From assembly GCF_009914755.1 (NCBI RefSeq), contig NC_060933.1: a DNA stretch of 64,000 nucleotides. One strand, written 5' to 3'. The notes below the pieces were generated by a model. It was not told where the DNA came from, searched no databases, and saw only the letters and a program-made list of their open reading frames with translations. Below, one piece after another: positions 4,221-26,539 of the stretch. Positions within the stretch are counted from its first letter, which is position 1; each line of letters starts with the position of its first letter. Position numbers and translations under genes: made by a program. This stretch comes from the human T2T-CHM13v2.0 reference genome, Homo sapiens.

Positions 4221-5770
4221 TTGCTTTGTTTCCTCTGTGCCCCCTCCCCAAAACCTGCTAGGAGGGTTCAGGCTCACTCACACCTCCTTTCTCACTCATC
4301 ATATTCCTGAGCACCTCAACGTGACCAGCCTGGCCCAGTGAACCAGACAGACACAGGCTCTGCCCTCCCGGAGCTCCCGGTGGGCCCCTCGCTGCCACCT
4401 GCCTTACACACCAGGCAGGATTGAGATTCTTTGTAATCTGCAGAGGGGCCCAAGCTTTTGTGCCAACAAGAAGGACCAGGAAGACTCCCGAAGCCCCTGC
4501 CCACCCCACCACCCTCACCTGGCCAAGCCCGGCCTGACTCAGCAGGCCCCAGAAACCTCGGTGCCTGTTCCTCAAACACCCGGACACCTCCTTCCCCTTT
4601 CCCCTCCTGCCCACAGAGGGCTTAAGATTGGGGATGGGGTTGTTTGGGGGGTAGGGGATGAGGGCAGAGGGAGGCTCACAGGACTGGGGAGGTGGGGCGT
4701 GAATGGGACAGTTGGGAACCAGGAAATGGAGTTTCCAGCGCCCTTCTAGCAGGCACAGCTGACTGTGCCACCTGCCTTCAGAGGTCTCCCCATGCCCAAG
4801 AAAGGACGCATGGGCCCCCTGGCTTGGCCCAGCAGGAACATGAGGGCCAGGCAGGGCCAATTCCCAAGAAGCTGAGCCTGCAAGGGACCCGTGGAGAAGA
4901 CGGGCCTATAAGTTGAGGACGGGGCTCCTGGTGGCCCCCACAGCCCAGGCCAGGCTTGCGGTGCTGGGGAGTACAGGCCTGGACAATGCCTTTGACGGGG
5001 TGGCTTTGAGACCTGTGACTCGAGTTTTACACAGCCAGGCAGCGCTAACCCCGGAGACCAGGATCCCGACCTCTGGGTGTCAACACGGCGCCCCCTGCAT
5101 TTCCAGGGCTAGGACAAGAGCACAGATGGAGGCTCCTGTACCACGTGTCTGGATATTTAAAGCCGCCCATCAAGCTGTTGAATAAAGTTCAGCCAGTCCT
5201 AGACAAGCAATCCCTTCACAGTGACCTGAAAGGCTGGGCTCAAATCTGTACCCTTGGACTCCTCCAGCTGTGGCCAGCACGTGGTGGGGTGGCTGGGCCT
5301 GGCTTCCCCAACCAGTCACCCTACCCAGGCTCTGATCCTGGGTGGCCTAGAAGGAGTGTGCAGGCTCTGGGGGGCACGCCCCTTAAGCCCATGGCGGGGT
5401 TGGGGAGGCCCTGAGCAGGGCTGGAGATACCCAGCCTCACCTCCTGGGGCCCCCTGGGGCCACAGAAGCTATCAGGCAGCCTCTGTGACCCCTCTTGGAA
5501 GACCGGCCACAAATACCCACAGTCCCATGGTGCACATAGGGGCAGAGCTCTGGGGTAGCAGGAAACCTACGAGTGGAGACATTTGGGCCCACCCCCAGCC
5601 AGCCAGCTGCCTGCTTGGCCAACGGCAAATGTGTACTGCTGTGCGTGCCACGCTGGACAGCCCTGTGCCAGCCACTGGGGCAGCCAAGGGAAGTCTTGAG
5701 TGAGAAGCAGCCTCAGTTCAGACTGACGTGTCAGGGGGACGTAAGCCCTGGTGTTGCTGGTTCTTTAGAT

Positions 5771-19662: not shown

Positions 19663-22980
<3,318 letters not shown>

Positions 22981-23388
22981 TTATACAGAAATTTTTGTGA
23001 GAGAGGTGTAGATCAGTGAGATTAACTTAAAGGCTTTTAATTCTAAAAAGAGATTACCCCAGTGAATCTTAGCCTAAACAAGCAGGAATGGAAGTACAAT
23101 TTCAAAGAGAGGAAAAAATAAAATAATATTGCTTTCTATTCCACTGGATATATTTAAGAGTGATGTAATAATTTTAATTGCTGTATTTTAAAATGTCAAT
23201 ATTGATAATACATCAGAAGCATAATCTTCAGTAATATTTAAACTTACAAAGATTTTTTCTATCAACTTAAAAATAGGAGGTACATAAAAATAAACGGTAC
23301 ACAGCTTTTAAAACTTCCTTCAGAGCAGGCACACAGACGACAAAGGCTGGAGGTGATAGAGGAGTGAAACAAGAAAGAAGGTGTATCT

Positions 23389-23407
23389 GAGCGCCACCTG
23401 GTGGCAG
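23389..23407 (-). promoter_or_regulatory. CTCF core motif in SETX intron 25
   Basis: Minus strand reads CTGCCACCAGGTGGCGCTC, a full match to CCASYAGRKGGCRS. Confidence 0.7.
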
Positions 23408-23759
23408 GAACCAAAACCAGGGGAAACAGCCACCAAGTTGGCTCTTCTTAGATGAAATCAATGACTTCATAAAAAAGAGAAATGAGGAAAACTACAAAGT
23501 TATTACCCCTAATAAGACAAACAGCAAATACGTGCTACATCTAGCTGTGATATCAGTGAATTAAGCTGTACCATTTGTCTACTGAAGTTGGAAACTCGTA
23601 CACCTCTTCCAGAGGGGCGCCTGTCCTGGCAGAAGAATGCCGGAGGCGCTAAGTGCTGGAGAAACAGAGTGAGCAGCACAGCTCCCAGTGCCAGCAGAAA
23701 AGCAGAGCAGAGCACGCGCCTGCAAACTCTCTCTGGCATTAAGCTGGGCCAATAACAGC

Positions 23760-23865
23760 CACATTTACTGAGTGTTTACTAAGTGCCAAGCAATTGCTTT
23801 GGCACTTTACATCTGTGGGTTTAATATACCTTCTTAACAATAATCCTATGATGTGGATAATTTGT
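23760..23865 (-). mobile_element. MIR fragment adjacent to the cassette-exon donor
   Basis: catttactgagtgtttactaagtgccaagca...acaataatcctatga. Confidence 0.55.
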
Positions 23866-23879
23866 TTTAAAATGGTCAC

Positions 23880-23966
23880 CTTGAGAGCCCAGTGTAGATA
23901 CTTGGGTTCTGGGCTGAAAAAAGGCGAATGGTTCACGTGTACACAAAAGCTCCTAGGAAGAAGTTG
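23880..23966 (-). CDS. SETX: Alternative in-frame cassette exon (87 nt, 29 aa) between SETX exons 25 and 26
   Basis: Acceptor gttttccag|CAA, donor AAG|gtgacc, phase 0-0, no stop; encodes QLLPRSFCVHVNHSPFFSPEPKYLHWALK. Matches my recollection of a longer annotated SETX isoform. Confidence 0.8.
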
Positions 23967-24091
23967 CTGGAAAACATAACAACCATTATTTTGTAATCCA
24001 GAAATCATTTACACTTTGATGGAAAATAAGAACAAAAACTCAATCCAACAACAGTAACAATGGGTAAACTTCTGAGCTCTCTGGTACCTAC

Positions 24092-24179
24092 CATCAGGGT
24101 CCTCAAATGTCCGAGGATGAAGAGGCTGTACTTGGCTCGTGTGATGGTGACATTCAATCTCTGCAAACTTGCCAGGAAT
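24092..24179 (-). CDS. SETX: Senataxin exon 25 (88 nt), motif VI
   Basis: Acceptor tattgcctag|A, donor ATG|gtaggt; encodes (G)FLASLQRLNVTITRAKYSLFILGHLRTLM. Confidence 0.97.
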
Positions 24180-24208
24180 CTAGGCAATAAAAAAAGAGTT
24201 CCTTCTTT

Positions 24209-24938
24209 GTCTAGAATGACTTAACATGCCCATGTGAGACAAAGGTGGACTCTAGAATGACTCAACGTGCCCGTGTCTGACAGAGGTGGAATCTTGAATG
24301 ACTCAGTGAGCCCGAGACACAGGTGGACTCTAGAATGACTCAGCGTGCCCGTGTGAGACACAGGTGGATTCTAGAATGACTCAGCATCCTCATGTGAGAC
24401 ACAGGTGGACTCTAGAATGACTCAGCGTGCCCGTGTGAGACACAGGTGGACTCTAGAATGACTCAGCATCCTCATGTGAGACACAGGTGGACTCTAGAAT
24501 GACTCAGCGTGCCCGTGTGAGACACAGGTGGACTCTAGAATGACTCAGCATCCTCATGTGAGACACAGGTGGACTCTAGAATGACTCAGCGTGCCCGTGT
24601 GAGACACAGGTGGACTCTAGAATGACTCAGCATCCTCATGTGAGACACAGGTGGACTCTAGAATGACTCAGCGTGCCCATGTGAGACACAGGTGGACTCT
24701 ACAATGACTCAGTATGCCCATGTGAGACACAGGTGGACTCTAGAATGACTCAGCGTGCCCATGTGAGACACAGGTAGACTCTAGAATGACTCAGCGTGCC
24801 CGTGTGAGACACAGGTGGACTCTAGACTCAGCATGCCCATGTGAGACACAGATGGACTCTAGAATGACTCAGCATGCCAGTGAGACACAGGTGAACTCTA
24901 GAATGACTCAGCATGCCCATGTGAGACACAGGTGGACT
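24209..24938. repeat. Minisatellite/VNTR, 41-bp unit, ~18 copies, in SETX intron 24
   Basis: tagaatgac recurs at 24331, 24372, 24413, 24454 etc. (period 41). Consensus unit gactctagaatgactcagc(g/a)t(g/c)c(c/t)c(g/a)tgtgagacacaggtg. Confidence 0.97.
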
Positions 24939-25742
24939 GCAGGCAGCTTTTCCGGGACTCCTTCACTCCTCTAGAAGTCACAGTGCTTTCTTACTCTCCG
25001 TCCCAATACAGGGTACCGGGCACAGAAGAATTCCTATTAAAAACAGGAAACAAACCAAAACCTCGGGGCTTCCTTCAAAGTGATGCATCTATCAATTTCC
25101 TATTTTTACCTGGATAAGATAATTGGAAATTTTAACAGTGCAATCTTGAAGCCTTGAAAAATCCTAAAAATGTGGTACCAGCCTAATCACTTTATTCTTA
25201 CATTTAAATATATCTAGACTGTTAAGATATTGTAGAACTAGTGTAGAAATACATGAACACCAGATAAATATTTCAGTAGATCAGAAAAAGAGCTCAGAAA
25301 TAGAATTGATGTATGATAAAAGTGAAATTTCAAATTAGCTGGGAAAGAAAGGTCTATTTATAAACTGACCCTGAGATACAACTGGGCTCTGTATATGCAG
25401 CCCATCCCAGGGAGGGGCAAAGATTACTTTAATTACTATTTTATTTGAAAACGAACTAATTTATAACCTGTAAATTCTGTCTGCTTCTCATGACAAGAAA
25501 CAAATAATCATGTAAGAGTCTTGGGCTTGGGATATTTTCTGTCACTCATACAGGTGTCCTTAGCATCTTAAATAAACTGACAGTAGTTAAGGTGAACAAA
25601 TTTAGCCAAAGCAGGAAAACACAGAAAACAATGACACTTTGACACATACCATGGGGAGTAATATGCCTCTGCAAAGTATAATCTAATTATTTATTTGAAT
25701 CTTATTAAATAAAAGAACAGATTCACACTATGAAATGGGTTA

Positions 25743-25892
<150 letters not shown>

Positions 25893-26186
25893 TTAGCTGG
25901 GCGTGGTAGCACATGCCTGTAGTCCCAGCTACTCGGGAGGCTGATGCAGAAGAATCGCTTGAACCCAGGAGGTGGAGGATGCAGTGGGCCAAGATTGCAC
26001 CAAGATCTAACAGTGGGTCTATTTCACAACTTAAAAGAGAAACTTTCATAGTATTACACAGGTTTTCACAAAAGAAAATTAAAAAAGCAAATGGTGTTCT
26101 CTAACAGTGATAATGAACCTAATCCTGAACTATAAACAAGCAACAATGTATACAAGTATAAAAGAGCAACAATGACAGTAACTCAC

Positions 26187-26285
26187 CCAATTGAACCTTG
26201 GATGCTATTTGCTCTGACACACGTAACAATAACACAATCCTTCTGCCGACCCTGGAATGCATCCACAGTGTCTACTTCTGCTGGT
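26187..26285 (-). CDS. SETX: Senataxin exon 24 (99 nt), motif V
   Basis: Acceptor tgtaaatag|A, donor TGG|gtgagt; encodes (G)PAEVDTVDAFQGRQKDCVIVTCVRANSIQGSI(G). Confidence 0.97.
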
Positions 26286-26329
26286 CTATTTACAAAAGAG
26301 AAACATATTTACTGGAAAAAGGAAGATAA

Positions 26330-26539
<210 letters not shown>

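What the first reader, a model, noticed from the sequence alone, without database searches (positions are those of the whole stretch)
24209..24938. Intronic VNTR is a tandem array of AP-1 / NRF2-type antioxidant response elements: candidate copy-number-variable redox enhancer inside SETX
Seen: of 18 units, 16 carry TGACTCA (AP-1), 13 carry TGACTCAGC (ARE core TGACnnnGC) and 6 carry the full ATGACTCAGCA (for example 24376-24386). Nearly every unit also has a CAGGTG E-box, all at 41-bp (~4 helical turn) spacing. Established: ATGACTCAGCA is the optimal CNC-sMAF (NRF2/NFE2/BACH1-MAFK) site, and SETX loss sensitises cells to oxidative DNA damage. Inference: the repeat is a homotypic, length-tunable stress enhancer acting on SETX or its neighbours, so alleles of different length could modify expression or AOA2/ALS4 phenotype.
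Basis: partly seen in the sequence, partly recalled or inferred. Interest (0 to 1): 0.8.

Follow-up and report, generated by a model that had tools for sequence, protein, structure and literature searches.

The report
bZIP-bound minisatellite in SETX intron
A variable 41-base tandem repeat inside the SETX gene carries a stress-factor binding site in almost every copy and is bound by NRF2 and probably BACH1 in published data, but nothing yet shows that it controls SETX.

Summary
Window 24210-24938 is an 18-copy, 41-bp minisatellite. TGACTCA occurs in 16 units, TGACTCAGC in 13, ATGACTCAGCA in 6 and CAGGTG in 14, all on the + strand.

- **Occupancy:** NRF2 ChIP-seq peaks fall inside the array in A549 cells and in sulforaphane-treated lymphoblastoid cells. 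A knockout-controlled BACH1 peak in A549 most likely does too.
- **Population data:** Lu et al. 2023 list this repeat (hg38 chr9:132269731-132270461) as associated with SETX expression, by length in 1 tissue and by motif dosage in at least 3. All slopes are negative. It is absent from their fine-mapped table.
- **Expression response:** SETX mRNA did not respond to sulforaphane (1.03-fold) or to BACH1 knockout (log2FC 0.03).

The array is therefore a real, factor-bound cluster of AP-1/CNC-sMAF sites. The claim that it is a length-tunable redox enhancer of SETX is not supported.

Variable repeats built of AP-1 motifs are already described (LTR10 VNTRs; MORC3-restricted repeats). I found no paper that discusses this locus. 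I rate it a new member of a known kind, of moderate interest.

The parts
24210..24938 (+). 41-bp minisatellite, 18 units (12 distinct unit sequences). All TRE/ARE-type sites are in one orientation. It equals hg38 chr9:132269731-132270461, TR_locus 77087 of Lu et al. 2023.
   Evidence: coordinate match
24370..24656 (+). Perfect higher-order repeat of 82 bp. Units 5, 7, 9 and 11 are identical (…TGACTCAGCATCCTCATG…, no CpG, full ATGACTCAGCA). They alternate with identical units 6, 8 and 10 (…TGACTCAGCGTGCCCGTG…, 2 CpG, ARE core only). This indicates recent expansion. Short reads cannot be placed uniquely here.
   Evidence: k-mer uniqueness within the window (36-mers non-unique for starts 24370-24658, 75-mers for 24370-24604)
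24168..24444 (.). Estimated position of the NRF2 ChIP-seq region R-2050 in sulforaphane-treated lymphoblastoid cells (Chorley 2012): rank 448 of 849, 7 unique reads, ARE count 3, not in the high-confidence set.
   Evidence: mapped by distance to TSS (assumes the same TSS and no indels between assemblies)
24748..24898 (.). Estimated position of the 150-bp NRF2 ChIP-seq peak chr9-77 in A549 (score 40.2; one of 2,395 peaks; annotated 'intron 24 of 25'). The BACH1 A549 peak maps to about 24751 if its distance was measured from the RefSeq gene-span end.
24349..24389 (+). Approximate position of the 41-mer 'eMotif' of Lu et al. (CCGTGTGAGACACAGGTGGATTCTAGAATGACTCAGCATCC). It spans the unit 4/unit 5 junction. 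Its GGATTCTAGA junction occurs once in the window, at 24366. Its dosage is negatively associated with SETX expression in 3 GTEx tissues.
24092..24179 (-). SETX exon 25 of 26. Its acceptor AG lies at 24180-24181, and the array begins 30 nt upstream of it in the sense of the gene.
   Evidence: hub annotation; sequence
24197..25033 (-). Exon of other SETX transcripts that contains the whole array. Its 5' end at 25033 follows a good acceptor (tttcctgtttttaatag|G on the minus strand).
   Evidence: hub annotation

Best explanation
The array is a recently expanded, polymorphic minisatellite whose unit carries a composite bZIP site, so it forms a homotypic cluster of 16 AP-1 sites. Thirteen of these carry the GC extension used by CNC-small-Maf dimers, and 6 are the full ATGACTCAGCA.

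In cells the cluster works as a binding platform. NRF2-sMAF occupies it when NRF2 is abundant, and BACH1-sMAF probably occupies it in the basal state. I infer, without showing it, that FOS/JUN binds where MAPK signalling is active. That would explain the RefSeq enhancer and silencer features over it.

Its effect on steady-state SETX mRNA is small or absent in the conditions tested. It is best seen as a bound, context-dependent and weak cis-element, or a factor sink, rather than a redox switch for SETX.

**Shown:** sequence anatomy; NRF2 occupancy in two cell types; statistical association with SETX expression.
**Inferred:** AP-1 binding; the exact place of the BACH1 peak; any regulatory output.
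For: - **Site counts and orientation:**
- **NRF2 peak in A549:** hg19 chr9:135145658-135145808, 'intron 24 of 25', 84,639 bp from the TSS. Its centre maps to window 24823.
- **NRF2 region in SFN-treated LCL:** 85,156 bp from the TSS with 3 AREs. Its centre maps to window 24306. Both centres fall inside hg38 132269731-132270461.
- **BACH1 peak in SETX:** log2 WT/KO ratio 1.8. It maps to 24751 if measured from the RefSeq gene-span end.
- **BACH1 alternative placement is unlikely:** window 22879 has no TRE/ARE-like motif in 22300-23500, whereas 74% of BACH1 targets in that study carry TGACTCAGC.
- **Motif match:** both studies recover ATGACTCAGCA(A) / TGACTCAGCA as their top motif.
- **Mappability:** both NRF2 peaks sit on the uniquely mappable flanks of the perfect 82-bp core. 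Two of the three studies state that they kept only uniquely aligned reads, so occupancy is probably underestimated.
- **Weak output on SETX:** SFN/NT 1.03; BACH1-KO log2FC 0.03, padj 0.69.
- **Hub annotation (not verified by any search):** RefSeq enhancers 23829-25028 and 24147-25132, and silencer 24233-24407, overlap the array.
Against: - No AP-1, small-Maf, ATAC or H3K27ac data could be consulted.
- The LCL peak is weak: 7 reads, below the authors' cut-off of more than 15 reads for high confidence.
- The peak positions rest on distances to the TSS carried across assemblies, not on lifted coordinates.
- The strong eMotif associations (p down to 3e-19) could mean a real effect on SETX that the two perturbation experiments missed, since they used other cell types than the eQTL tissues.
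- The TRE columns are among the least variable of the unit (2 of 35 seven-column windows are as conserved). That would also fit selection for the site.
Confidence: 0.55

Rival explanations
1. Neutral minisatellite. The ancestral unit happened to contain a TRE/ARE, replication slippage and unequal exchange multiplied it, and abundant bZIP factors bind opportunistically with no consequence for any gene. The eQTL signal is linkage to a nearby causal SNP.
For: - Base rate: about 12 VNTRs with the 9-mer are expected by chance among 39,125.
- SETX did not respond to SFN or to BACH1 knockout.
- The locus is absent from the PIP >= 0.1 fine-mapping table, where the control term XRRA1 was found.
- The conservation test within the array is inconclusive, because variation is dominated by two CpG columns.
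Against: - RefSeq lists enhancer and silencer features over the array (hub annotation, not verified here).
- Occupancy is reproducible in two cell types and for two factors.
Confidence: 0.25
2. The array is an NRF2-inducible, length-tunable antioxidant-response enhancer that raises SETX (or a neighbour) under oxidative stress, so longer alleles give more induction.
For: - Six perfect ATGACTCAGCA sites and 13 ARE cores.
- NRF2 occupancy after sulforaphane and in A549.
- Length and motif dosage are associated with SETX expression.
- The link between SETX and redox/DNA damage is reviewed in PMC10103468 (passages).
Against: - SETX is 1.03-fold after SFN in the same cells where the peak was called.
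- SETX appears only in the peak table among the held supplements of the A549 NRF2 study.
- All four published slopes are negative.
- Four of the literature searches found no paper naming SETX as an NRF2 target.
Confidence: 0.08
3. RNA-level element. The array lies 30 nt upstream of the exon 25 acceptor and is wholly contained in an alternative exon (24197-25033). Allele length or composition would shift splicing or use of that exon, and so shift measured SETX mRNA.
For: - A good acceptor lies at 25033, and the array abuts the polypyrimidine tract of exon 25.
- The hub annotation lists the alternative exon.
- A negative slope is what one expects if longer or variant arrays divert transcripts into a truncated isoform (inference).
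Against: - No isoform-level data were seen.
- No polyadenylation signal is visible upstream of 24197 on the minus strand.
- No Rfam family matches in 23000-26500.
- This model does not explain the ChIP peaks.
Confidence: 0.07
4. Latent, actively repressed enhancer of the MORC3-restricted type. A large homotypic AP-1 cluster is kept closed in the steady state and becomes a strong enhancer only when repression is lifted.
For: - PMC13373173 reports MORC3-restricted VNTRs with AP-1-like motif clusters of up to 61 motifs, and an intronic VNTR that drives a gene about 100 kb away (passages).
- A RefSeq silencer feature overlaps units 1-5 (hub annotation).
Against: - SETX is not mentioned in that paper's main text.
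- The array is at least partly accessible to NRF2 and BACH1 in ordinary cells.
Confidence: 0.05

Closest known systems
LTR10A/LTR10F internal VNTR carrying AP-1 motifs (Ivancevic et al. 2024, Sci Adv, PMC466953; passages read)
   Same: A tandem array whose unit holds an AP-1 motif, with up to 33 copies. Copy number is polymorphic in humans. Motif number correlates with FOSL1 binding and H3K27ac.
   Different: The unit is 28-30 bp and lies inside an endogenous-retrovirus LTR. Here the unit is 41 bp, and I could not test whether it derives from a transposable element. The LTR10 work concerns MAPK/AP-1 in colorectal cancer, not CNC-sMAF factors. Here 13 of 18 units add the GC extension, and NRF2/BACH1 binding is what has been documented.
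MORC3-restricted VNTRs with homotypic SPI / AP-1 / SP-KLF motif clusters, for example the IFNB1-MRE in a FOCAD intron (PMC13373173; passages read)
   Same: An intronic minisatellite that is a dense one-factor motif cluster and varies in copy number. The concept that repeat expansion amplifies a binding site.
   Different: MORC3 binding or restriction at the SETX array was not examined. The MRE acts on a neighbouring gene and is silent until derepressed, whereas the SETX array shows NRF2/BACH1 ChIP signal in ordinary cells.
CACNA1C intronic VNTR and other eMotif loci of Lu et al. 2023 (PMC10234305; passages and supplements)
   Same: An intronic VNTR of the host gene whose motif composition, more than its length, is associated with expression of that gene. 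The SETX array is listed in the same tables.
   Different: CACNA1C motifs are presented by the authors as likely causal. The SETX locus is absent from the fine-mapping table, and the paper does not discuss it.
Classical multi-site ARE/StRE enhancers, such as the HMOX1 distal enhancers and the tandem NF-E2/AP-1 sites of beta-globin HS2 (recalled, no call)
   Same: Several closely spaced TGACTCAGC(A)-type sites are bound competitively by NRF2-sMAF, BACH1-sMAF and AP-1.
   Different: Those have a few non-identical sites in conserved unique sequence, with strong inducibility of the linked gene. Here there are 16 near-identical sites in a young repeat, and the host gene showed no inducibility in the two data sets seen.

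Membership tests
Minisatellite / VNTR | Head-to-tail copies of a unit of 7 bp or more | tested here: met
   Period 41, 18.0 copies, 87% matches
Minisatellite / VNTR | Copy number varies in the population | tested here: met
   The locus is TR_locus 77087 in the danbing-tk VNTR set. Its estimated length is associated with SETX expression (q 0.016), which requires length variation. No allele lengths were seen directly; hg38 and T2T-CHM13 both carry 730 bp.
Antioxidant response element / CNC-sMAF binding element | Core TGACnnnGC; optimal (A/G)TGA(C/G)TCAGCA | tested here: met
   13 of 18 units carry the core and 6 of 18 carry the full 11-mer. The remaining 7 core units read GCG, not GCA.
Antioxidant response element / CNC-sMAF binding element | NRF2 occupancy in vivo | tested here: met
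   Published peaks in A549 and in SFN-treated LCL (weak, 7 reads). Both centres map inside the array.
Antioxidant response element / CNC-sMAF binding element | BACH1 occupancy in vivo | tested here: inconclusive
   A KO-controlled BACH1 peak lies in SETX 86,583 bp from 'start'. It maps to 24751 or 22879 depending on which start was used. No coordinates are held. There is no motif near 22879.
Antioxidant response element / CNC-sMAF binding element | Linked gene is induced by NRF2 activation or derepressed by BACH1 loss | tested here: not met
   SETX SFN/NT is 1.03. BACH1-KO log2FC is 0.03, padj 0.69. Only SETX was looked up; neighbouring genes were not.
AP-1 (TRE) enhancer | TGA(C/G)TCA sites | tested here: met
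   16 of 18 units
AP-1 (TRE) enhancer | FOS/JUN occupancy and TRE-dependent reporter activity | not testable with these tools
   No AP-1 ChIP or reporter data were reachable. The RefSeq enhancer/silencer features come from the hub annotation and I could not trace their source. Neumayr 2022 is not held.
LTR10-type AP-1 VNTR | 28-30-bp unit inside an LTR10A/F element | tested here: not met
   The period is 41 bp versus 28-30 bp. Transposable-element origin of the flanks cannot be tested here because no repeat library is available.
MORC3-restricted homotypic motif cluster | MORC3 binding and gain of accessibility on MORC3 loss | not tested

The most novel reading that the evidence does not exclude
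The array is a composition-coded regulatory repeat in which the kind of unit matters more than the length.

In the 82-bp higher-order repeat, units that are perfect CNC-sMAF sites (…TCAGCA, no CpG) alternate with units where the deciding base is a CpG (…TCAGCG, overlapping a GCGTG core). Haplotypes with different unit mixtures, and different methylation, would set the balance between AP-1-only and NRF2/BACH1-competent sites.

Net repression through BACH1/sMAF or a MORC3-type mechanism would explain the negative eQTL slopes and the RefSeq silencer. Under stress, or in neurons, the balance would flip. That would tune SETX or a neighbouring gene and modify AOA2/ALS4 severity.
Probability: 0.07. 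Interest if true: 0.7.

Novelty: new member of a known kind. Interest (0 to 1): 0.35.

Why it matters
SETX dosage matters in two directions: recessive loss causes AOA2 and dominant mutations cause ALS4. A common, multi-allelic cis-element acting on SETX would therefore be a plausible modifier that SNP-based studies miss.

The pieces already exist in public data: NRF2/BACH1 peaks, a VNTR-expression association and RefSeq regulatory features. In the six literature searches I ran, no paper connects them.

The available perturbation data argue that any effect on SETX is small. The main value of the locus is as a clean test case for two questions. Does unit composition of a bZIP-site minisatellite have regulatory output? 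How much ChIP signal is lost in repeats when only unique reads are kept?

Tried and rejected
- **Literature searches with no paper on this locus:**
  - SETX + VNTR gave 8 papers, all about SVA elements or general reviews.
  - SETX + VNTR + eQTL gave 0.
  - SETX + antioxidant response element gave 11 reviews.
  - SETX/NRF2/ChIP-seq/BACH1: none of the 15 listed papers held SETX in its text.
  - NRF2 + tandem repeat/VNTR/minisatellite and senataxin + NRF2 target gave nothing relevant among the 15 and 12 papers listed.
- **Source of the RefSeq enhancer features:** Neumayr et al. 2022 is not held, so I could not trace them.
- **BACH1 peak coordinates:** none in the held supplements.
- **Fine-mapping table:** the first search also missed CACNA1C, so I read the file head and repeated the search with a control term that was found. 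SETX is truly absent from it.
- **Selection on the TRE within the array:** inconclusive.
- **Structured RNA in 23000-26500:** no Rfam match.
- **Not attempted:** comparison with other primates, a repeat-family (transposable element) assignment and a genome-wide count of similar arrays. The collections on hand are prokaryotic, viral, plasmid or E. coli, and I did not ask for the human genome.
- **Supplement not fully visible:** Data S3 of Lu et al. was cut when stored, so further eMotif tissues or genes for this locus may exist. Their Data S1 and Supplemental Material PDF were too large to read.

Full report
**1. Observation**

Tandem Repeats Finder gives one array at 24210-24938: period 41, 18.0 copies, 87% matches. 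Within 24209-24938 there are 16 TGACTCA, 13 TGACTCAGC, 6 ATGACTCAGCA and 14 CAGGTG. All are on the + strand and none on the other. Unit 1 (TGACTTA) and unit 16 (4-bp deletion) lack the AP-1 heptamer. Units 3, 16 and 17 are 37, 37 and 39 bp long, so the 41-bp spacing is not quite uniform.

The rest of the 64-kb window holds 9 heptamers, one 9-mer and no 11-mer. The consensus unit does not occur outside the array.

**2. Anatomy**

- There are 12 distinct unit sequences among the 18 units.
- Units 5, 7, 9 and 11 are identical, with …TGACTCAGCATCCTCATG… and no CpG. Units 6, 8 and 10 are also identical, with …TGACTCAGCGTGCCCGTG… and two CpG. Together they form a perfect 82-bp higher-order repeat over 24370-24656. 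This is the signature of recent expansion.
- The base that turns an ARE core into the full CNC-sMAF 11-mer (GCA versus GCG) sits at a CpG. Seven units read TGACTCAGCG and six read TGACTCAGCA.
- SETX is on the minus strand. The array ends 30 nt upstream, in the sense of the gene, of the acceptor of exon 25 (24179-24092).
- The array lies wholly within an exon of other transcripts (24197-25033). That exon's 5' end follows a good acceptor, tttcctgtttttaatag|G (exon list from the hub annotation).
- No Rfam family matches 23000-26500.

**3. Chance**

The 16 sites descend from one ancestral unit, so they count as one event. A 41-bp unit holds the 7-mer, 9-mer or 11-mer by chance with probability about 5e-3, 3e-4 and 2e-5. 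That gives roughly 196, 12 and 0.8 expected among 39,125 profiled human VNTRs.

The TRE columns are among the least variable in the unit: 2 deviations in 7 columns, and only 2 of 35 seven-column windows are as conserved. However, variation is dominated by two CpG columns, so this is not evidence of selection.

**4. Occupancy**

I searched the supplementary tables of three ChIP-seq studies for SETX.

- **A549 NRF2 (PMC6949066).** Peak chr9-77 lies at hg19 chr9:135145658-135145808, score 40.2, 'intron 24 of 25', 84,639 bp from the TSS. It is one of 2,395 peaks of 150 bp.
- **Sulforaphane-treated lymphoblastoid NRF2 (PMC3424561).** Region R-2050 ranks 448 of 849, with 7 unique reads (below the authors' cut-off of more than 15 reads for high confidence) and an ARE count of 3. 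It lies 85,156 bp from the TSS.
- **A549 BACH1 with knockout control (PMC12314328).** There is a peak 'in gene', 86,583 bp from 'start', with log2 WT/KO ratio 1.8.

To place these peaks I used hg38 coordinates from Lu et al.. Those are SETX 132261356-132354985 and the VNTR 132269731-132270461. With these the VNTR maps to window 24208-24938, an exact fit to the array. The two NRF2 peak centres map to 24823 and 24306, both inside the array.

The BACH1 peak maps to 24751 if the distance was measured from the RefSeq gene-span end (111334). It maps to 22879 if measured from the NM_015046 TSS. There is no TRE/ARE-like motif in 22300-23500, and 74% of that study's targets carry TGACTCAGC, so the array is the likelier place. 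No coordinates were available to settle it.

These mappings assume the same TSS and no indels between assemblies.

**5. Mappability**

Within the window, 36-mers are non-unique for starts 24370-24658 and 75-mers for starts 24370-24604. The LCL NRF2 study and the A549 BACH1 study state that they kept only uniquely aligned reads. I found no such statement in the A549 NRF2 paper. The two NRF2 peaks sit on the diverged flanks on either side of the perfect core. This is what one expects if the whole array is bound but its core is invisible to unique mapping. That reading is an inference.

**6. Population data**

Lu et al. 2023 (Genome Res, PMC10234305) list this locus as TR_locus 77087.

| Variant tested | GTEx tissue | Slope | p |
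|---|---|---|---|
| Length | Esophagus_Muscularis | -0.186 | 7.5e-5 (q 0.016) |
| 41-mer motif dosage | Artery_Tibial | -0.367 | 3.0e-19 |
| 41-mer motif dosage | Esophagus_Muscularis | -0.391 | 1.3e-17 |
| 41-mer motif dosage | Colon_Sigmoid | -0.388 | 4.2e-12 |

- By length, it is an eVNTR for SETX in that one tissue only.
- The motif is a 41-mer spanning the unit 4/unit 5 junction. The motif file was cut when stored, so there may be more rows.
- The motif's junction string occurs once in the window, so it may behave like a haplotype tag.
- The fine-mapping table (repeat variants with PIP >= 0.1; 2,161 rows) has no SETX row, while a control term was found.
- The authors state that 9,422 of 39,125 VNTRs carry eMotifs and that most are linked to nearby eQTLs.
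- hg38 and T2T-CHM13 carry the same 730-bp allele.

**7. Response of SETX**

- SETX was 1.03-fold after sulforaphane in the cells where the peak was called.
- SETX log2FC was 0.03 (padj 0.69) in BACH1-knockout A549.
- Among the 6 held supplementary files of the A549 NRF2 study, SETX occurs only in the peak table. It is therefore not in whichever of the held files lists the 253 genes that are both bound and down-regulated on NRF2 knockdown.
- I looked up only SETX, not neighbouring genes.

**8. Reading**

The array is a factor-bound homotypic cluster of composite AP-1/CNC-sMAF sites. The claim that it is a length-tunable redox enhancer of SETX is not supported: SETX was not inducible, all four slopes are negative, and the locus was not fine-mapped.

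My best account (0.55) is a binding platform with weak, context-dependent output. Rivals:
- neutral repeat with opportunistic binding (0.25);
- an RNA-level effect through the adjacent acceptor or the alternative exon (0.07);
- a MORC3-type latent enhancer (0.05).

AP-1 binding itself is inferred from the motif only.

**9. What is known**

- Variable tandem arrays of AP-1 motifs are described in LTR10A/F elements. Those have a 28-30-bp unit and up to 33 motifs, are polymorphic, and motif number tracks FOSL1 and H3K27ac.
- VNTRs with homotypic SPI, AP-1 or SP/KLF clusters are described as MORC3-restricted elements. One of them, intronic, drives IFNB1.
- The SETX array differs in unit length, and it is the CNC-sMAF extension and NRF2/BACH1 binding that are documented for it.
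- None of the six literature searches found a paper that discusses this locus. Hence 'new member of a known kind'.

**10. Recalled, not from any call**

- A549 cells have constitutively high NRF2.
- The HMOX1 and beta-globin HS2 multi-site enhancers.
- GCGTG as the AhR/ARNT core, and TTCnnGAA as a heat-shock element.
- Senataxin-deficient cells are sensitive to oxidative DNA damage. only showed review passages linking senataxin and redox homeostasis.

The RefSeq enhancer and silencer features come from the hub's annotation. I could not trace or verify them.

Noticed in passing
window 24197-25033 (- strand): The whole array is exonic in other SETX transcripts. The exon's 5' end at 25033 follows a strong acceptor (tttcctgtttttaatag|G). 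Its annotated 3' end at 24197 has no visible AATAAA/ATTAAA upstream and lies 17 nt before exon 25.
   Followed up: partly
window 24366-24376: The unit 4/unit 5 junction reads GGATTCTAGAATG because unit 4 ends in T instead of C. This makes the only TTCTAGAA palindrome in the array (heat-shock-element-like; the label is recalled). The same junction is the eMotif that Lu et al. associate with lower SETX expression.
   Followed up: partly
window 24336-24347 and six further units (starts 24418, 24500, 24582, 24664, 24746, 24787): In the 7 CpG-bearing units the ARE core runs straight into GCGTG (TGACTCAGCGTG). That is the core of the AhR/ARNT xenobiotic response element (the label is recalled).
   Followed up: no
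window 24970-24990: Thirty-one bases past the end of the array there is a degenerate unit-like stretch (TCTAGAAGTCACAGTGC…). It may be a relic of the progenitor sequence or an old diverged unit.
   Followed up: no
window 25771-25777: This is the only other TGACTCA in the same intron. It lies inside an Alu-like sequence (…GGCCGGGCGCAGTGACTCACGCCTGTAATCCCAGCA…) and has no GC extension.
   Followed up: partly
window 4535-4543: The only TGACTCAGC in the window outside the array. It lies downstream of the SETX 3' end.
   Followed up: no
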